A stretch of 13,486 nt of DNA from a virus (lineage: Duplodnaviria; Heunggongvirae; Uroviricota; Caudoviricetes), in IMG/VR virus record IMGVR_UViG_2534681899_000005; one strand, written 5' to 3'. Positions within the stretch are counted from its first letter, which is position 1. The number at the start of each line of letters is the position of its first letter. The position numbers and the translations under genes are program-made. This document shows positions 1 to 13,486 of this stretch, one piece after another. Below the pieces are notes generated by a model that worked only from the letters and a program-made list of their open reading frames with translations, was not told where the DNA came from and made no database searches.

Positions 1-95
1 TTGGTGTGAACAGTCTTTCATGTTCTTTATGTATCAGTTGTCCTGTGTGGTGATTTGGTGGACTGCCCCAGGGGCCATACTTATGATGCCCGGTC
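1..95. repeat. Left copy of 95-bp terminal direct repeat
   Basis: Bases 1-95 are identical to 13392-13486. Contains CTGTGTGG and the inverted repeat GCCCCAGGGGC. The repeat is truncated by the window edge, so its true length may be larger. Confidence 0.9.
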
Positions 96-343: not shown

Positions 344-541
344 TAACCTGTAAAGAATTTTCACACCTGTGTGTTTATACAGTCATACTCTCCTGTTTTG
401 CAGTCATTGCACCCATGATACACAGCCCCTAACCTGTCAAAATATTTTACTACCCCACCAATAATACGGCCCATACCTGTAAAATATTTTTACTACTACC
501 TGTCAAAATCTTTTACTACTACCTGTAAAAATATTTGACAC
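344..541. repeat. Iteron array: five direct 22-24-bp repeats, three contiguous; candidate replication origin
   Basis: Copies at 344-366, 430-453, 474-496, 497-519 and 520-541 share the core ACCTGT[A/C]AAAAT(A/C)TTTTACTAC; AT-rich context. Confidence 0.7.
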
Positions 542-1109
542 TAATAGATAAAGTAATAGACCACACAATAAATCCCCCCTAACCCCCCCAGGGGGAATGG
601 GGAGGGATCAGAGAGTGGGGAAGGTTTTCTAAGGGAAAAGCTTAACCCACAAATGAAAGCCTAAAGAGCATTAGTGACTCTTTAGGCAATCTGTGTGTGG
701 GTCACTCTGTGACTTTAGCTATACAGCTAAACCGACTACATCGGCCTGTGTGTGGGGTGACAATGTATTCCATACATGACACGTCACCCAATTGTGTGTG
801 GTCCGGCGAATGCGTCAGCATGAGGCCCACATGTGGACCGCTGCCGAAAGCTTGCCAGCGCCGGAAGGAGGCAGCAAAGAGTCTCCCGCGCTCATGTGTG
901 GGCGTATACGTAAGATATACATTCATAAATCCAATTCTAGGCACCTAAATGGCCTTCTGGCTGCATTAACCTGTGTGAGTAGTGCAATTGCATTACCTGA
1001 CCTCTAAATCGCGTTAGAATCGATTTTAGAGCGCTTAAGGCAAAAAGTGCCCTCCCTCCCTTGTGGGCTTGCTTGTACCTATAGCACACCTAAATGATAA
1101 TAATTCTCA

Positions 1110-1138
1110 TTGACAATTGGTTGACAATATGATAAGAT
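1110..1138 (+). promoter_or_regulatory. Candidate sigma70 promoter (TTGACA-17-TAAGAT), with a second TTGACAAT copy at 1121
   Basis: -35 TTGACA at 1110-1115 and -10-like TAAGAT at 1133-1138; TTGACAAT is duplicated 11 bp downstream. Confidence 0.3.
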
Positions 1139-1173: not shown

Positions 1174-1323
1174 GTGGAAATTACTGATGCAATAGCGATC
1201 ATCAACCTGGCTGTACTGTGGTGCGGTGTTGCCTACATAGCCGGAGTAACTGCAATCGACAATCTTGAAGAAAAAATGATAGATAAATACAAAAAGATTG
1301 TTGACAATTTGACGAATGTCTGA
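1174..1323 (+). CDS. Hypothetical small hydrophobic peptide (49 codons, GTG start)
   Basis: GGAGG at 1164-1168 lies 5 nt before GTG 1174. The translation VEITDAIAIINLAVLWCGVAYIAGVTAIDNLEEKMIDKYKKIVDNLTNV has one predicted TM helix and a charged tail. Below the ORF-track size cutoff and overlaps the downstream promoter. Confidence 0.2.
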   Translation: MEITDAIAIINLAVLWCGVAYIAGVTAIDNLEEKMIDKYKKIVDNLTNV

Positions 1324-1329
1324 TAAAAT
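1301..1329 (+). promoter_or_regulatory. Strong sigma70-type promoter for the rightward Rep operon (TTGACA-17-TAAAAT)
   Basis: -35 TTGACA at 1301-1306, 17-bp spacer, -10 TAAAAT at 1324-1329; 125 bp upstream of the first operon ATG; near-identical to the minus-strand promoter at 10859-10887. Confidence 0.55.
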
Positions 1330-1454
1330 ATAAAGCATAGGGTAATTCTCATCATAGTGAATTTCCTTTAGTAGACTGGCGGGGGCTTGTATTAAGTTCC
1401 CGTTTCTTTTTAACCGTATATCGCACAGGCGGTGAGCTGACAGGAGATTGAATC

Positions 1455-1664
1455 ATGGCTAAAACCGGACCGATAAGCCAGCTTGTAAACTGGACTACTG
1501 ACGAAATCGTCGAGAACGTGCTTAAAGGTAACTTTCGAAAAACTTCCGTTTATGCATTTATTCGTAAACACAAAGGAGAATATCCACACATTGAAGCGGC
1601 AATAGAAAAACTTAACTTTATCCGTATTGAGCGTGAGCTGGAAAGATATAAACATCTACTTTGA
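1455..1664 (+). CDS. Small (69 aa) putative DNA-binding regulator
   Basis: ATG preceded by AGGAGA RBS; stop overlaps the TTG at 1661 of the next gene; basic, with an HTH-like segment (TTDEIVENVLKGNFRKTSVYAFIRKH). Family not recognised. Confidence 0.5.
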   Translation: MAKTGPISQLVNWTTDEIVENVLKGNFRKTSVYAFIRKHKGEYPHIEAAIEKLNFIRIERELERYKHLL

Positions 1665-1684
1665 TAAATAATTGTGAGGGAATT

Positions 1685-2590
1685 ATGGCAAACAATAAAC
1701 TGGGGGCACATTTCACCCCAATTTTTAAACGTTTCATCAAGTATAATTTTGAAAATCCAATTGCAAAAACTACAACAGGCAAAGAGAGATTTAATTTAAA
1801 TGCGACGGAATTGATAATTTACGGGGAAATGGTTGGCTTTCATTTAAACGGCAACGAAATATTCATCTCGGAGCAGACCTTAGCAGATGATTGGGATTTT
1901 TCAAGACCAACGATTATTAAAGCTATTAAATCTCTAGTAAATGCTGGGATTATTTCTAAAGATAACCGGAAAGGCAAATCTAACATTTACAAACTGTTAA
2001 TTACACCTGAGCAGTTTGATAAAATGTGCGATGAGCAGGGTATTAAAACCTTAGACAGTGTGGGAGACAGCAAAGAGGCACCTGCTACACAGGCCCAAGA
2101 TAATCAACAGGAAGCCCCAAAAAAAGCCGCACAGCAAGCTAAAAAGGCTAAAGTAGTGCAATTGCCTACCCAAGACACTAAAGCGCCTCAAATTAACGCT
2201 GTTAGTGACAAGCCACGCCGGGGCCGTCCTGTGAAAGATGCAACAGATGGAGGCTGGATCGCCCTGGGTGAGAGTGAGGCTAAAGGCATAATGCGATCAC
2301 TGTGGGAAAGCAAATACAAAGATTTAAACAAACGTCGCCCGATCCTTTTGTCAAAGATTCAGGAGGATTTTTACACCGCAGAAGAGGTAAGCCAACATAA
2401 AGGGAAAAGAGAGGGTGAAATCTGGAAACCGGAAGAATACTGGCATTTAACCAGACCTGTGTTTATTTTTGCAAATAAGCTTATTGGGATGGGATTTGAA
2501 ATATTGTTAGATAAAACCTGCGGAGATTATCCCGAAATATTGTGGAGAAATGTTAGAAAAAATAAAAAAGGCATTTTAGAGTTTAAATAA
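1685..2590 (+). CDS. Putative replication initiator / replisome-organiser-like protein (winged helix plus AT-hook)
   Basis: ATG 1685 with GAGGGA RBS (the track uses in-frame TTG 1661). N-terminal winged-helix-like region (..FISEQTLADDWDFSRPTIIKAIKSLVNAGIISKD..), P/Q/A/K-rich linker with AT-hook KPRRGRPVK, C-terminal domain. Iteron array lies about 1.1 kb upstream. Confidence 0.45.
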   Translation: MANNKLGAHFTPIFKRFIKYNFENPIAKTTTGKERFNLNATELIIYGEMVGFHLNGNEIFISEQTLADDWDFSRPTIIKAIKSLVNAGIISKDNRKGKSNIYKLLITPEQFDKMCDEQGIKTLDSVGDSKEAPATQAQDNQQEAPKKAAQQAKKAKVVQLPTQDTKAPQINAVSDKPRRGRPVKDATDGGWIALGESEAKGIMRSLWESKYKDLNKRRPILLSKIQEDFYTAEEVSQHKGKREGEIWKPEEYWHLTRPVFIFANKLIGMGFEILLDKTCGDYPEILWRNVRKNKKGILEFK

Positions 2591-2638
2591 AAACACTGAT
2601 AATCTTATTTTTTTACAGTATTCTAAAGGAAATTTAAA

Positions 2639-2785
2639 ATGTATGGCGATTTTGATTATTACCTGGAAAAGGAAAAATATTTTGAAGATGAACTATCACA
2701 ACATTTTTCATATTGGGAAGAATATTGTGGTTGGTTAGCTGAAGATCCAGCAGATGAAGAAAACGATTCTGACATCCCTTATTAA
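2639..2785 (+). CDS. Hypothetical small acidic protein (48 aa)
   Basis: ATG 2639 with AAAGGA RBS 8 nt upstream; translation MYGDFDYYLEKEKYFEDELSQHFSYWEEYCGWLAEDPADEENDSDIPY; below the track cutoff, found by hand. Confidence 0.3.
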   Translation: MYGDFDYYLEKEKYFEDELSQHFSYWEEYCGWLAEDPADEENDSDIPY

Positions 2786-6792: not shown

Positions 6793-6828
6793 GCAAGAAA
6801 AAAGCCCCTAAGTGTTAACAAAGGGGCT
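6793..6828 (-). terminator. Intrinsic terminator, clearest on the minus strand (possibly bidirectional)
   Basis: Stem AGCCCCT (6803-6809) / AGGGGCT (6822-6828) with a 12-nt loop. On the minus strand it is followed by TTTTTTCTT (complement of 6793-6802); on the plus strand only by CTCTTCTCC. Confidence 0.5.
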
Positions 6829-6849
6829 CTTCTCCGGTATCCTTTTGAT

Positions 6850-10369: not shown

Positions 10370-10667
10370 TTGATCACCTGCGATTTAAATTAACTCCCCT
10401 CAAAGAGTTCCGGTATAACCTCTCAAACCACGACAGGCTCGGGCCGAAAAGTTATGCCGGAAATCTAAAGGGAAATTGATACAAGGAGAGGGAGATAGCC
10501 CCGCACCGTCCAAGCGGGGGCTATTCCACATGGGGAAACCGACAACAGTCGGATGATAGTTCACAGTATGATTACGGTTACTAGAGAGCACTATCACGAA
10601 AGGCACTCCCCCGGATCAGTTCAGGCTGCGGTCACATCAGCGGGGAAATACCTTTCGGGATAGCTAC

Positions 10668-10701
10668 CCACACAGAAAACCCGCAAAAGAAAACTGTGTG
10701 G
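10668..10701. promoter_or_regulatory. Inverted repeat CCACACAG-N18-CTGTGTGG in the capsid-operon leader
   Basis: Perfect 8-bp arms at 10668-10675 and 10694-10701; lies in the roughly 480-nt leader between promoter and decoration gene; overlaps TGTGGATAA. Confidence 0.35.
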
Positions 10702-10850
10702 ATAACTAGCCCAATAGGAGAATTAATCGACCACTCAACGATGATCAGGGTAGTGTTATTTATAAGGCGGCACCGCTACCTGGTCGCCTTTACTTTGGAG
10801 GAAAATACGGCAAATCAAGATCTTCTCAAATGATATTGATTCCATACTAT

Positions 10851-10870
10851 ACTGTATATTATATCAGTAT
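10851..10870. promoter_or_regulatory. LexA-box-like palindrome (SOS operator candidate)
   Basis: Minus strand reads TACTGATATAATATACAGTA, which keeps CTG-N10-CAG with an AT-rich spacer (consensus TACTGTATATATATACAGTA); overlaps the -10 of the capsid-operon promoter. Confidence 0.5.
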
Positions 10871-10887
10871 TCTCTCAAATTGTCAAC
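10859..10887 (-). promoter_or_regulatory. Consensus sigma70 promoter for the leftward capsid operon (TTGACA-17-TATAAT)
   Basis: Minus strand reads gtgTTGACAatttgagagaatactgaTATAATat: -35 at 10882-10887, -10 at 10859-10864, exact 17-bp spacer. Confidence 0.6.
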
Positions 10888-11193
10888 ACCCTGATTATAT
10901 AAATTCTAATAATTAGCGTGGTAACTGTATTTTCAGACCTCTATCAATCCCATCAATACGTCACCCCACCCTTTAGATGCATACATCCGACCTACTTTGT
11001 AGGCTTGGCGTACTGCCAAGGTCGCAGCTATGCGACTCCTATCTATCACCACTTTATAAAGCTTGATAGATATCTTTTGATCAATATCAATGTTTTCCAG
11101 GGATTTACCCGGCTATAGTTCGAATCAAGGAAGGGGAGCATTGATAGCACCCAACCGAGCAAACAAATCAACTTCTCGCAAAAGGTGATAGTT

Positions 11194-11316: not shown

Positions 11317-11380
11317 GATAGGCAAAGGAGGCAAAGCATTTTTTAATAGGTCTGGCAGTCTTAGATTTTGTATTAATCAT

Positions 11381-11423
11381 CATTGAGCGGAGTTTATGAA
11401 CAGCATTGAGAGGAGTTTATGAC
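11381..11423 (+). repeat. Tandem duplication of a translation-initiation region, with an 8-codon upstream ORF coupled by ATGA
   Basis: CATTGAGCGGAGTTTATGAA (11381-11400) is followed by a near-identical second copy (11404-11423, CATTGAGAGGAGTTTATGAC); mini-ORF 11396-11422 (MNSIERSL) stops at TGA overlapping the main ATG at 11419. Confidence 0.45.
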
Positions 11424-11679
11424 GGGGGCTAAAGATATCAGGAGACTGAGGGAAGAGCTGATAGCTGAAATTAAAGCTAAGGCAAAGCAAATGGAGATAG
11501 CCGCACAAATGGATGTAGCGGAACAGATGTACAAGATGGTTGAAGAGGGAACACCACGACAGGTTATCGCTAAAACCTTCGGTGTGGGGATCGCCACCGT
11601 GCACAGAAGGCTGAAAGCCTATGCCGACTACCACAATATCGAGAGAAAGGAGGATGGGAGATTTAAGAAGAATAAATAG
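11419..11679 (+). CDS. Small HTH DNA-binding protein (resolvase/Fis-type HTH), 86 aa
   Basis: GAGAGGAG RBS; coiled-coil-like N-terminus; C-terminal GTPRQVIAKTFGVGIATVHRRLKAY matches the Hin/resolvase-type HTH pattern; no recombinase catalytic domain. Confidence 0.5.
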   Translation: MTGAKDIRRLREELIAEIKAKAKQMEIAAQMDVAEQMYKMVEEGTPRQVIAKTFGVGIATVHRRLKAYADYHNIERKEDGRFKKNK

Positions 11680-12258: not shown

Positions 12259-12265
12259 CCTACCA

Positions 12266-12292
12266 GGGGGGCCATCACGGCCCCTTTTTATT
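12266..12292 (+). terminator. Rho-independent terminator
   Basis: GC stem GGGGCC / GGCCCC with loop ATCAC, followed by TTTTTATTTAT; 8 nt after the stop at 12258. Confidence 0.75.
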
Positions 12293-12366
12293 TATCCCTT
12301 ATTTACACTCCTTTCAGTCCTGATCATCACTCCCTACGGTAATGAGCAATTAACCCCTATTTAAGG

Positions 12367-12408
12367 GGTATTTAATGGGTATTTAATGCCTATTTATTGA
12401 TTTAATCC
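12367..12408. repeat. 11-bp tandem repeats (GGTATTTAATG x2 plus degenerate copies)
   Basis: GGTATTTAATG at 12367-12377 and 12378-12388, then CCTATTTATTG and ATTTAATCC; preceded by CCCCTATTTAAGGGG; related palindrome GGTATTAATACC at 12871-12882. Confidence 0.5.
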
Positions 12409-13099
12409 GTTTTATGCCACAACCGCCCGGTTGACAGAGTAAGAGAGAGGGTGTAACCCTTTTTCGTAAAACCAATAAAATCAATAGCTTAGCTCAATTG
12501 GCCTTTTCTCTGTTTTTGTCAAATTTAACATGCCCTCAAAAACTGCAAAATCTGGCTGCAAGATTATCTGCAGCTGGATTTCTTACACCTCAATTTGTGG
12601 TATCACCCTGACTAGTTTGTGCATAAAATGAACAGTTTTTAACATTTCCTATTCACCTGGTAACCACACAAAAAGCTAAAAACGAGGCACAGATAATCTT
12701 AGAGGCCTGTTTTCTTGTTATCACTCTGGGAACGTCGTAGAAGTGATTTTGATGAAAGACGGCCTACCCTATTACACCCCCATTTTTTGTTATCACAATT
12801 GCATCCTGTGCGGTATATGACTATGTGCTGAAAGCGGTCTCAGGTGTGGGTGTCAGAAATATCCATTAGCGGTATTAATACCCGTCAGATGTTCGTCTGA
12901 GGTGCCAGGCAGGCGCTCCCCTACCTCCCCTTTTTCTTCTAACAATTCTCAAATATCACACCACTGCCCACCACGTTGCTATTATGTTAATTCTTAAGCT
13001 TTGCTTTATGTTGTGCACATTATTTATTCAGGTGCGTGTACGTAAATTCTGGGCCTCCTTATCACGATTTTTAAATCAGATTTTGTAGTGCGCTTTATT

Positions 13100-13127
13100 A
13101 GTGTAGATAAGATCTATTATGTTAAAT
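13100..13127 (+). promoter_or_regulatory. Candidate Xer recombination site (dif/psi-like)
   Basis: AGTGTAGATAA-GATCTA-TTATGTTAAAT: right arm is identical to the E. coli dif XerD arm as recalled; 6-bp centre resembles pSC101 psi (GATCCA); left arm is degenerate versus GGTGCGCATAA (5 of 11). Confidence 0.35.
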
Positions 13128-13391
13128 GCAATTTTCCCAACCCTTCAAATCAATGACTTACATGTAAGCATGCACTAACACCCCACACAGCACATTAGAC
13201 GTGTAGATGTCCATATCCCACATTTTTGATTGTTTTGTAGTCATTCCCCTGATCATTTAACCAGTATAGTTTGTTCTCTGCAGACCACAAAATCGGAATT
13301 TACATCTGATTAACATAATCTGTTAGCATGATCACCATTACCCACACAACAATAACCCCATGCAAGCCTCTTCAGGCAATTTATCGGCGTG

Positions 13392-13486
13392 TTGGTGTGA
13401 ACAGTCTTTCATGTTCTTTATGTATCAGTTGTCCTGTGTGGTGATTTGGTGGACTGCCCCAGGGGCCATACTTATGATGCCCGGTC
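13392..13486. repeat. Right copy of 95-bp terminal direct repeat
   Basis: Exact match to 1-95 on the same strand. Confidence 0.9.

What the first reader, a model, noticed from the sequence alone, without database searches (positions are those of the whole stretch)
1298..1331. Paralogous promoter cassette on the Rep operon that lacks the LexA right half-site
The Rep-operon promoter region matches the minus-strand capsid promoter at about 25 of 34 aligned positions, including GTTGACAATTTGA, the CTGA at the spacer end, and the -10. Its palindrome is broken, reading CTG-N10-AAG instead of CTG-N10-CAG. The two operons may therefore share a duplicated promoter but differ in SOS repression: replication constitutive or differently controlled, morphogenesis SOS-gated.
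Basis: seen in the sequence. Interest (0 to 1): 0.5.

Follow-up and report, generated by a model that had tools for sequence, protein, structure and literature searches.

The report
Strong promoter for a small RNA
The flagged site looks like a real, strong, non-SOS promoter on a 13-kb phage-like E. coli plasmid, but its first product is probably a ~76-nt regulatory RNA that pairs with the ribosome-binding site of a small gene just after the replication gene, not simply a replication-operon message.

Summary
Window 1298-1331 matches the minus-strand capsid-operon promoter at 26 of 34 positions (40/54 when extended). It reads CTG-N10-AAG where the partner reads CTG-N10-CAG. The similarity exceeds chance and exceeds 122 unrelated promoters that share the same core.

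- **P1300 is conserved and not a LexA site.** TTGACA-17-TAAAAT with a TG extension is invariant in 31/31 relatives and never scores as a LexA box.
- **The capsid-promoter LexA box is good here but unstable.** It is intact in 16 of 30 relatives. A 1-nt G deletion breaks it in 13, and it is absent in the most divergent one.
- **A better conserved LexA-like box lies elsewhere**, next to the iterons (365-384).
- **P1300 probably makes a small RNA.** It sits in the last codons of a conserved 49-aa ORF, about 40 nt upstream of a conserved intrinsic terminator, so its main product should be a ~76-nt RNA.
- **That RNA has a covarying target.** Its middle (1353-1378) is complementary to the SD and AUG of the small ORF after rep (2616-2641). 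Four matched RNA/target types exist across relatives, with 26 matched pairs and none mixed, independent of rep allele.

No expression data exist, so the RNA mechanism is inferred.

The parts
1110..1138 (+). P1110: upstream promoter of the 49-aa ORF (TTGACA-17-TAAGAT with TG extension). It is a weaker third member of the same promoter family.
   Evidence: 10/12 match. It shares 32/59 positions with P1300 and 24/59 with Pcap. It is present in all relatives examined.
1174..1323 (+). Conserved 49-aa ORF (GTG start, GGAGG SD, hydrophobic N-terminal half). Its last 8 codons and its TGA stop contain the -35 and the TG of P1300.
   Evidence: Translation. Annotated in relatives as WP_157794903.1. Intact in all 31 relatives, with conservative substitutions.
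1301..1329 (+). P1300, the finding itself: -35 TTGACA 1301-1306, 17-nt spacer, TG 1321-1322 (part of the stop codon), -10 TAAAAT 1324-1329. The predicted start is near 1336.
   Evidence: 11/12 plus TG. -35, TG and -10 are invariant in 31/31 relatives, while 7 of the 12 nt between TTGACAAT and the TG, and the transcribed region, vary.
1336..1411 (+). Predicted ~76-nt RNA: a weak 5' hairpin, an antisense element, and a terminator hairpin with a U tract.
   Evidence: Fold -21.6 kcal/mol, z = -3.0. The equivalent RNA is 73-77 nt in types A, B, C and E and 96 nt in type D (z = -4.5).
1353..1378 (+). Antisense element CATAGTGAATTTCCTTTAGTAGACTG, complementary to 2616-2641.
   Evidence: I3 (26 nt, 81% complementary). 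My hand count on the I3 arms gives 22/26 pairs when G-U is allowed; one search confirms 14 contiguous pairs. Covariation.
1378..1411 (+). Intrinsic terminator: 12-pair stem GGCGGGGGCTTG/TAAGTTCCCGTT followed by TTTCTTTTT.
   Evidence: Relatives L009, L136 and L149 have a different hairpin (GCTGGG...CCCAGC) plus a T tract at the same place.
1455..2590 (+). 69-aa ORF (1455-1664) and the replication initiator (ATG 1685 to 2590; HTH_36/DnaD_N-like, PHROG 'replication initiation O-like'). The promoter scan finds no site between the terminator and the rep start at 1685, so these genes depend on read-through from P1300 or P1110.
2616..2641 (+). Predicted RNA target CAGTATTCTAAAGGAAATTTAAAATG, which is the SD (AAGGAAA) and AUG (2639-2641) of the 48-aa ORF.
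2639..2785 (+). 48-aa acidic ORF (MYGDFDYYLEKEKYFEDE...) immediately after rep. It lies upstream of five further ORFs, the last being the tape measure gene.
   Evidence: Annotated in relatives as WP_001682500.1.
10858..10886 (-). Pcap: TTGACA-17-TATAAT with TG extension (12/12). It lies upstream of a ~480-nt leader, a 111-aa ORF and the major capsid gene.
   Evidence: -35 and TG are invariant in 30/30 relatives; the -10 is TATAAT in 27, TACAAT in 2 and TAAAAT in 1.
10850..10869 (.). LexA-like box TACTGTATATTATATCAGTA overlapping the Pcap -10 and start site.
   Evidence: HI 5.6 on my matrix. P about 0.001 by chance. Intact in 16/30 relatives.
365..384 (.). Second LexA-like box ACCTGTGTGTTTATACAGTC, directly after an iteron-like copy and upstream of the iteron array at 432-542. 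It is not part of P1300 but bears on the SOS interpretation.
   Evidence: HI 6.1. Present in 21/25 complete relatives with five different 8-nt spacers, while CTGT and ACAG are kept.

Best explanation
Window 1301-1329 is most likely a genuine, strong sigma-70 promoter with an extended -10. It is nested in the last codons of a 49-aa ORF on a 13.4-kb circular phage-like plasmid of E. coli. It belongs to a small family of look-alike promoters on this element (P1300, Pcap, and more distantly P1110). It is not a LexA target.

Transcripts starting near 1336 meet a conserved intrinsic terminator at 1378-1411. The main product is therefore inferred to be a ~76-nt RNA. The minority that reads through would supply mRNA for the 69-aa ORF and rep.

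The middle of the short RNA (1353-1378, core AAUUUCCUUUAG) is inferred to pair with the Shine-Dalgarno sequence and AUG of the small ORF just after rep (2616-2641). That pairing would block its translation. By polarity it may also hold down the distal genes, including the tape measure gene, while the element is maintained as a plasmid.

What is shown: the promoter elements and their invariance, the terminator, the complementarity, and its covariation. What is inferred: transcription start, termination efficiency, action in trans, and the physiological consequence.

The LexA palindrome is a lineage-variable feature of Pcap. It is not something P1300 has lost.
For: **Promoter**
- 11/12 consensus match, 17-nt spacer, TG extension.
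- TTGACA, TG and TAAAAT are invariant in 31/31 relatives, although 7 of the 12 nt between TTGACAAT and the TG change in one haplotype, and the sequence downstream of TGATAAAATATA is completely replaced in type D.

**Not LexA**
- HI 16.4, against 1.3-9.8 for known boxes. This is background-level rank.
- Still HI 12.3 after a hypothetical AAG to CAG repair.

**Terminator**
- 12-pair stem plus U tract, kept in all types.
- Replaced by a different hairpin plus U tract in type D.
- The promoter scan finds no site between the terminator and the rep start at 1685.

**Pairing**
- 14 contiguous pairs in type A and 20 in type B. Type C has 14 exact plus flanking matches, and type D has a 26-nt imperfect match. 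In every case the pairing covers the SD and/or AUG of the first ORF after rep, even though that ORF is a different gene in types C and D.

**Covariation**
- 85% of cells paired, with 9 of 28 pairs changed on both sides. 0/500 shuffles reach this, and slid controls give 43-55% paired with 0-3 such pairs.
- 26 elements have matched RNA and target types (A/A 14, B/B 6, C/C 3, D/D 3) and none is mixed.
- The two arms switch together independently of the rep gene between them. L001 (type A) and L143 (type B) have Reps 94% identical, and L006/L139 (A) versus L007 (B) are 93-94% identical. Within type A, Rep identity falls to 41%.

**Relation to Pcap**
-.
Against: - There are no transcript data. The start site, the RNA's existence, its abundance and terminator efficiency are all predictions.
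- Covariation rests on only 5 distinct rows and about 3-4 block switches. I anchored the alignment on the complementary cores, which favours the tested register (caveats).
- A genome-wide RNAduplex scan did not single out the target by energy. For type A, unrelated windows reached -25 to -28 kcal/mol and the target was not among the top four. For type B it ranked second among non-self hits.
- Part of the antisense element is paired in the predicted 5' hairpin.
- Three relatives (type E: L004, L142, L147) keep the promoter, RNA and terminator but have no small ORF and no detectable target.
- P1110 transcripts also end at the same terminator and carry the same element, so P1300 may not be the only source.
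- The LexA matrix was rebuilt from 28 sites recalled from the literature. Only relative rank is reliable. For example, it gives recA 4.7 where the published value as I recall it is 4.31.
Confidence: 0.6

Rival explanations
1. First reader's model. P1300 is simply the promoter of the replication operon and a duplicate of the capsid promoter that has lost the right LexA half-site. Replication is then SOS-independent and morphogenesis is SOS-repressed.
For: - Similarity beyond chance.
- P1300 lacks a LexA box, and Pcap in this window has a good one.
- rep has no other recognisable promoter, so P1300 or P1110 read-through must feed it.
Against: - A conserved terminator lies about 40 nt after the predicted start.
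- There is a covarying antisense element in the leader.
- The Pcap box is broken in 13/30 relatives and absent in L010.
- P1300 is more than one change away from a LexA box.
- The best conserved LexA-like box lies at the iteron region.
- The plus-strand operon carries the tape measure gene.
Confidence: 0.2
2. The resemblance between P1300 and Pcap is convergence. Both are near-consensus extended -10 promoters in AT-rich DNA, with no common origin and no shared regulation.
For: - 14 of the matching positions are the consensus elements themselves.
- The 19-nt core TTGACAAT-N12-TGATAWAATATA occurs in more than 120 unrelated viral contigs.
- Spacers differ among relatives without loss of the hexamers, so no shared operator is evident.
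- In relatives with the alternative P1300 spacer, my hand comparison of the sequences gives only about 4/12 spacer matches.
Against: - At 40 non-core columns the pair shares 22 positions. The 122 same-core controls average 13.0 (sd 2.3, maximum 18).
- The genome-wide segment score exceeds all 46 shuffles.
- Similarity continues past the -10 into the first transcribed bases, as AG-ATAG.
Confidence: 0.25
3. The complementarity acts in cis. In read-through mRNA the leader (1353-1378) folds back onto 2616-2641 as a long-range structure that couples rep translation to the downstream ORF. No separate small RNA is involved.
For: The same base pairs and covariation are expected under this model. Both arms lie on one transcription unit with no strong promoter between them.
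Against: - A strong, conserved terminator separates the arms.
- The arms are 1.26-1.8 kb apart, with variable inserts between them.
- The architecture of promoter, short RNA and U-tailed hairpin is that of an independent RNA.
Confidence: 0.12
4. The two arms are DNA inverted repeats marking the borders of an exchangeable rep cassette. They act as recombination or protein-binding sites, not as RNA.
For: They flank the highly mosaic rep module. Mosaic breakpoints lie close to the promoters.
Against: - Arm type does not track rep allele.
- The right arm always covers the SD and AUG of three different small ORFs.
- Pairing tolerates G-U, for example AAGGAAG opposite UUUCCUU.
- The left arm sits exactly between a promoter and a terminator.
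Confidence: 0.03

Closest known systems
c4 antisense RNA of phages P1 and P7 (immI operon: c4, icd, ant)
   Same: A small RNA is encoded upstream, in the same orientation and transcription unit as its target. It pairs with the ribosome-binding region of a small ORF and so controls downstream genes. Specificity types differ between related elements. P1 is also a plasmid prophage of E. coli (PMC8201110 for C4, Icd and Ant; P1/P7 heteroimmunity from my own knowledge of Citron and Schuster 1990).
   Different: No sequence or structure match was found: the Rfam scan at E <= 1 returned no phage antisense-RNA family. Here the RNA has its own promoter inside an upstream CDS and its own intrinsic terminator, whereas c4 is cut out of a longer transcript. 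The target ORFs are unrelated to icd. No antirepressor gene is recognisable downstream.
CI RNA of satellite phage P4 (seqB pairing with seqA and seqC)
   Same: A satellite-type element holds part of its own operon silent with a small RNA made from the leader of that operon (described in PMC4825925).
   Different: P4 CI is generated by processing and causes premature transcription termination at two targets. Here a single target covers an SD and AUG, which suggests translational block. There is no Rfam match, and no P4-like genes such as alpha primase, sid, psu or delta.
IsrK of the Gifsy-1 prophage
   Same: One promoter gives a short terminated RNA and a read-through mRNA, and the short form acts in trans on the long form (PMC4825925).
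   Different: IsrK activates translation of its target. Here the pairing covers the SD and AUG and should repress. There is no homology.
3'-UTR sRNAs with their own promoter inside the upstream coding sequence (DapZ, MicL class; own knowledge, MicL cited within PMC4825925)
   Same: The promoter is embedded in the 3' end of a CDS. The sRNA shares the mRNA's intrinsic terminator. A short seed pairs with translation-initiation regions.
   Different: Those are chromosomal sRNAs with trans targets elsewhere in the genome. Here the target lies 1.3 kb downstream on the same element, and it co-varies with the RNA in discrete specificity types.
LexA-repressed promoters of plasmids and phages (colicin operons and others)
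   Same: Pcap in this window has a CTG-N10-CAG box over its -10 and start site. That is the usual position for repression (consensus as in PMC2994835; position effects in PMC8072944).
   Different: P1300 itself does not meet the definition. There is a single box, not the overlapping double boxes of colicin promoters. The box is polymorphic among close relatives.

Membership tests
Sigma-70 promoter with extended -10 | -35 hexamer close to TTGACA | tested here: met
   TTGACA at 1301-1306, 6/6. Invariant in 31/31 relatives.
Sigma-70 promoter with extended -10 | -10 hexamer close to TATAAT at 16-18 nt spacing, with TG one base upstream | tested here: met
   TAAAAT at 1324-1329 (5/6), 17-nt spacer, TG at 1321-1322. 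Invariant in 31/31 relatives.
Sigma-70 promoter with extended -10 | Mapped transcription start or promoter activity | not testable with these tools
   No transcript data are available. The start near 1336 is a prediction.
LexA (SOS) box, gammaproteobacterial type, at P1300 | CTGT-N8-ACAG palindrome (CTG-N10-CAG core) | tested here: not met
   CTGA-N8-AAAG at 1320-1335. No relative has CAG at N10 spacing.
LexA (SOS) box, gammaproteobacterial type, at P1300 | Heterology index within the range of known functional boxes | tested here: not met
   HI 16.4, against 1.3-9.8 for 28 recalled E. coli boxes. 21 sites in the window score as well, with 12 expected by chance. HI is 12.3 even after an AAG to CAG repair. 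The matrix was rebuilt from memory, so only rank is reliable.
LexA (SOS) box, at the capsid promoter 10850-10869 | Palindrome, HI in the functional range, overlap with the promoter | tested here: met
   TACTGTATATTATATCAGTA, HI 5.6, P about 0.001 in random sequence, spanning about -18 to +2.
LexA (SOS) box, at the capsid promoter 10850-10869 | Conservation among relatives | tested here: inconclusive
   Intact in 16/30, CAT variant (HI 11.8) in 13/30, absent in L010.
LexA (SOS) box (any site here) | LexA binding and SOS inducibility | not testable with these tools
   Needs EMSA or footprinting and reporter assays.
Intrinsic (Rho-independent) terminator | G+C-rich hairpin followed by a U tract | tested here: met
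   12-pair stem at 1378-1404 followed by TTTCTTTTT to 1411. Kept in all types, and replaced by a different hairpin plus T tract in type D.
Base-pairing regulatory sRNA | Own promoter and terminator delimiting a short non-coding transcript | tested here: met
   Predicted 73-96-nt unit in all 31 relatives. This is prediction only.
Base-pairing regulatory sRNA | Complementarity to a translation-initiation region, supported by covariation | tested here: met
   14-20 contiguous pairs over the SD and AUG in types A and B, with imperfect matches in types C and D. 9 pairs have compensatory changes, 0/500 shuffles reach this, and 26 matched versus 0 mixed elements exist.
Base-pairing regulatory sRNA | Detected RNA and a regulatory effect on the target | not testable with these tools
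   Needs Northern blot or RNA-seq, plus reporter fusions with compensatory mutations.
Described phage antisense or immunity RNA families in Rfam | Match to a curated covariance model | tested here: not met
   Rfam 15 scan of the whole window at E <= 1 returned only a chance ctRNA_p42d hit at 6793-6833 (23.6 bits against a gathering score of 50).

The most novel reading that the evidence does not exclude
P1300 drives a previously undescribed immunity-type antisense RNA with at least four mutually exclusive specificity classes (A-D). Each class is matched to the ribosome-binding site of the small ORF that follows rep. The host is an uncharacterised family of ~13.4-kb E. coli plasmids that encode a capsid protein, tape measure, Dit-like and tail-completion proteins. 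No terminase or portal was recognised among the 15 ORFs scanned, so these may be plasmid-borne phage satellites. The RNA classes would then act like heteroimmunity or incompatibility types. They would separate plasmid maintenance from expression of the distal, partly structural genes. LexA boxes would be placed variably, at the capsid promoter or at the iteron region, to link the element to DNA damage.
Probability: 0.45. Interest if true: 0.7.

Novelty: new member of a known kind. Interest (0 to 1): 0.5.

Why it matters
As first described, a promoter duplicate without a LexA half-site, the finding is modest. Its value is that it points to the control region of an unstudied family of small phage-like plasmids, found in E. 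coli from human, bovine, feral-pig and chicken sources.

If the small RNA is real, it gives a compact and directly testable example of RNA-based specificity types on a satellite-like plasmid, comparable to P1/P7 c4. Natural compensatory variants (types A-D) are already available as controls.

It also shows that SOS control in this family is labile. A single-base deletion distinguishes LexA-boxed from unboxed capsid promoters in otherwise near-identical plasmids. This is a natural experiment on the cost and benefit of SOS gating.

For annotation, it warns that a strong promoter upstream of rep need not be only a rep promoter.

Tried and rejected
- **More distant relatives.** A capsid-protein scan of IMG/VR found nothing, and a scan of one genome per species found no true relative. 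The protein search found only 18 clusters, all E. coli and all at least 81% identical. A specific 24-mer found 4 metagenome contigs and no representative genome. Deep phylogenetic tests were therefore impossible.
- **Generic promoter pattern in viral contigs.** It hit more than 120 unrelated contigs. It was useless for finding relatives, so I reused the hits as a same-core control set.
- **Genome-wide RNAduplex target search.** It was not discriminating. Looped duplexes of -25 to -28 kcal/mol occur at unrelated places, so I replaced energy with contiguous-helix and local-alignment searches.
- **An analogous small RNA or target downstream of Pcap.** None was found. The leader fold is no better than shuffles (z = +0.18), and the best complementarities were 12-26 nt imperfect matches inside coding regions.
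- **A shared operator in the spacers of the two promoters.** Rejected, because spacers vary freely among relatives.
- **Rfam.** No family matched.
- **Literature.** Searches for this plasmid family or for plasmid-borne satellites with capsid and tape measure genes found nothing specific.
- **Helper phage.** The tape measure and capsid proteins reach only 23-26% identity to proteins of large (131-150 kb) phage genomes, including rV5-like Escherichia phages. No helper could be named.
- **Published HI matrix.** It was not retrievable from the papers held, so I rebuilt a matrix from recalled sites.

Full report
**What the window is**

Bases 1-95 and 13392-13486 are identical, so the window is a circular 13,391-bp element with an assembly overlap. 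Megablast finds it only in E. coli plasmids of 13.2-13.7 kb, at 91-96% identity. It is on no chromosome and in no deposited phage.

The plus strand carries:
- a 49-aa ORF and a 69-aa ORF;
- a replication initiator (HTH_36/DnaD_N; PHROG 'replication initiation O-like');
- a 48-aa ORF and four ORFs of unknown function;
- a tape measure protein.

The minus strand carries a 111-aa ORF, a major head protein, an 83-aa ORF, a Dit-like protein and a tail-completion protein. About 2.2 kb has no annotated gene and contains four 22-nt iterons at 432-542. None of the 15 ORFs scanned matched a terminase or portal family, so the element looks like a plasmid-borne satellite or defective phage. I found no paper on it.

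**Checking the observation**

The finding is accurate.
- Anchored on the -35 hexamers, 1298-1331 matches the reverse complement of 10856-10889 at 26/34 positions. The match extends to 40/54 and 41/59.
- The two sites are the best sigma-70 matches in the window: 11/12 and 12/12, 17-nt spacers, both with TG.
- The pair is the longest inverted repeat reported.
- Its ungapped score of 26 exceeds the best inverted segment in all 46 dinucleotide shuffles (mean 18.9, maximum 25).

Both are near-consensus promoters, so I also used a harder control. The 19-nt core they share occurs in more than 120 unrelated viral contigs. Against 122 such promoters, P1300 shares 13.0 +/- 2.3 (maximum 18) of the 40 non-core columns, while it shares 22 with Pcap. 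The likeness is therefore real and goes beyond consensus. A third promoter, P1110, is a weaker relative at 32/59.

**The LexA question**

The published heterology-index matrix was not retrievable. I rebuilt a count matrix from 28 E. coli boxes recalled from the literature. It is approximate, so only rank should be trusted.

| Site | Score on this matrix |
|---|---|
| 28 known E. coli boxes | 1.3-9.8 |
| Pcap box, TACTGTATATTATATCAGTA (10850-10869) | 5.6 |
| P1300 | 16.4 |
| P1300 with AAG repaired to CAG | 12.3 |

- A site as good as the Pcap box arises in about 0.1% of random 13.4-kb sequences.
- P1300's score is no better than 21 other places in the window, with 12 expected by chance.
- Even the hypothetical repair leaves P1300 outside the known range. 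Its 'left half-site' is just the extended -10.

Across 31 relatives, P1300 never approaches a LexA box. The Pcap box is intact in 16 of 30 relatives. It is reduced to CAT by loss of one G in 13, on several different leader backgrounds. It is absent from the most divergent relative, L010, whose -10 region equals that of P1300.

A second box at 365-384 (HI 6.1) is better conserved. It is present in 21/25 complete relatives, with five different 8-nt spacers but constant CTGT and ACAG. It lies directly beside iteron copies. A third, weaker box lies at 13247-13266.

SOS control of the family is therefore plausible: three sites score <= 10 in the window against 0.14 expected. But it is not organised as 'capsid operon yes, replication no'.

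**What lies downstream of P1300**

- The -35 is formed by codons V-D-N of the 49-aa ORF, and the TG is part of its TGA stop. The ORF is intact and conservatively substituted in every relative.
- Starting near 1336, the transcript runs about 40 nt into a 12-pair hairpin followed by TTTCTTTTT.
- The hairpin is kept in all relatives. In type D a different hairpin plus T tract takes its place.
- The promoter scan reports no site between this terminator and the rep start at 1685.

The expected products are thus an abundant ~76-nt RNA and a minority of read-through mRNA.

**The antisense element**

The repeat finder had flagged 1353-1378 as complementary to 2616-2641 (I3). The second arm is the SD (AAGGAAA) and AUG of the 48-aa ORF just after rep. 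Relatives fall into discrete types:

| Type | RNA arm | Target arm |
|---|---|---|
| A | ...CCTTTAGTAGACTG | CAGTATTCTAAAGG... |
| B | ...CCTTAAACAAAAA | TTTTTGTTTAAGG... |
| C | AAGTCATCATAGTGGATTTCCTTAATTAAC | GTTAATTAAGGAAAACTCTTATGATAACTT (a different small ORF) |
| D | an unrelated 96-nt RNA | TTATTATGAGCATATTAAACGATTAT (the start of yet another ORF, right after rep) |

A formal count over types A-C gives the following:
- 85% of cells paired;
- 9 of 28 pairs with changes on both sides;
- 0/500 shuffles reaching any measure;
- slid registers at 43-55% paired.

Among 29 elements, 26 have matched RNA and target. None is mixed, and three (type E) have no small ORF and no target.

The arms switch together regardless of the rep allele between them. 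Reps are 94% identical between a type A and a type B element, and only 41% identical within type A. Simple linkage is therefore an unlikely explanation.

**Mechanism proposed**

P1300 makes a terminated small RNA that occludes the ribosome-binding site of the post-rep small ORF. This could reduce expression of the distal genes by polarity. Read-through supplies rep.

This works like P1/P7 c4 (PMC8201110), P4 CI and IsrK (PMC4825925). In its promoter-in-CDS layout it resembles the DapZ/MicL class (own knowledge). It is not a member of any described RNA family, because Rfam returned no match.

**Limits**

- All of this is sequence inference, with no expression data.
- The covariation rests on few independent events, and I anchored the alignment.
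- Duplex energy alone does not single out the target.
- Part of the seed is paired in the predicted fold.
- Type E lacks a target.
- Action in cis within read-through mRNA cannot be excluded.

**Verdict**

The site is a conserved, LexA-independent strong promoter related to the capsid promoter. Its most likely main product is a small antisense-type RNA. The LexA palindrome is a variable feature of the capsid promoter, not something P1300 has lost.

Noticed in passing
window 1-95 and 13392-13486; whole window: The window is a circular 13,391-bp element with a 95-nt assembly overlap. Close relatives are only E. coli plasmids of 13.2-13.7 kb from human, chicken, bovine and feral-pig sources. They encode capsid, tape measure, Dit-like and tail-completion proteins plus a replication initiator. 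None of the 15 ORFs scanned matched a terminase or portal family, so this may be a plasmid-borne phage satellite. I found no paper on it.
   Followed up: partly
window 365-384: A LexA-like box ACCTGTGTGTTTATACAGTC lies directly after an iteron-like copy and upstream of the iteron array. It is present in 21/25 complete relatives, with five different 8-nt spacers, while CTGT and ACAG stay constant. This looks selected. What it controls (an origin-region promoter, or replication itself) is unknown.
   Followed up: partly
window 13247-13266: A third, weaker LexA-like site, CCCTGATCATTTAACCAGTA (HI 9.9 on my matrix), is conserved in sequence in most relatives. A TATAGT -10-like hexamer starts within its last bases. 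No gene is annotated nearby.
   Followed up: no
window 10850-10857 and equivalent positions in L002, L003, L004, L006, L007, L011, L135, L139, L146, L150, L151, L153: The right half of the capsid-promoter LexA box is switched off by loss of a single G (ACAGTATA versus ACATATA). This occurs on several different leader backgrounds. Sequence downstream of the start site is mosaic, with at least four leader versions.
   Followed up: yes
window 432-542: Four 22-nt iterons (ACCTGTCAAAATATTTTACTAC) are present. Relatives carry different iteron sequences, for example ACCTGTTGGAATTTCCCAC and ACTACTGAAGATTTCTCAC. The Rep protein is highly mosaic (41-100% identity). Three relatives (L004, L142, L147) have an unrelated Rep at about 25% identity.
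   Followed up: partly
window 1174-1323: A conserved 49-aa ORF has a hydrophobic N-terminal half and a charged C-terminal half (VEITDAIAIINLAVLWCGVAYIAGVTAIDNLEEKMIDKYKKIVDNLTNV). It has a strong SD and its own strong promoter, P1110. It matches no family and its function is unknown; it may be a small membrane protein.
   Followed up: partly
window 10370-10850 (minus strand): About 480 nt lie between the capsid promoter and the first ORF of that operon, with no convincing ORF. The predicted fold of the first 152 nt is no better than shuffles, and there is no Rfam match. The purpose of this leader is unknown.
   Followed up: partly
window 12260-13391 and 96-1100: About 2.2 kb has no annotated gene in any relative and no Rfam hit. 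It contains the iterons, two LexA-like boxes and several hairpins followed by T runs (572-598, 659-687 on the minus strand; 12265-12287 on the plus strand).
   Followed up: no
L001 6173, L004 1461, L005 7075, L006 7242, L009 11355, L011 2241 (minus strand), L014 12503 (minus strand); L003 4631, L005 8661, L008 3586, L014 10429 (minus strand): Relatives carry further promoter-like sites with the same TTGACAAT -35 motif. One lies about 130 nt upstream of P1110 (ATTGACAATCTTATTGCATAAATGCTATAAG). One lies just upstream of the RNA target (AATTGACAATTACAAAATAAATATTCTTATT, with a poor -10). Both are absent from this window.
   Followed up: no
L147 (NTNY01000053.1), 13452-21041: One relative sits on a 30-kb contig next to aminoglycoside phosphotransferase genes, a DDE transposase and a TetR-family gene. 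The backbone can therefore acquire a resistance module.
   Followed up: no
L008 (NZ_CP043822.1, 39,610 bp): This record holds three places matching the query and is about three times the unit length. It is either an assembled trimer or a real multimer.
   Followed up: no
window 11378-11422: A tandem 22-nt duplication (CATCATTGAGCGGAGTTTATGA / CAGCATTGAGAGGAGTTTATGA) contains the SD and ATG region of the 86-aa HTH_7-like gene at 11419-11679.
   Followed up: no
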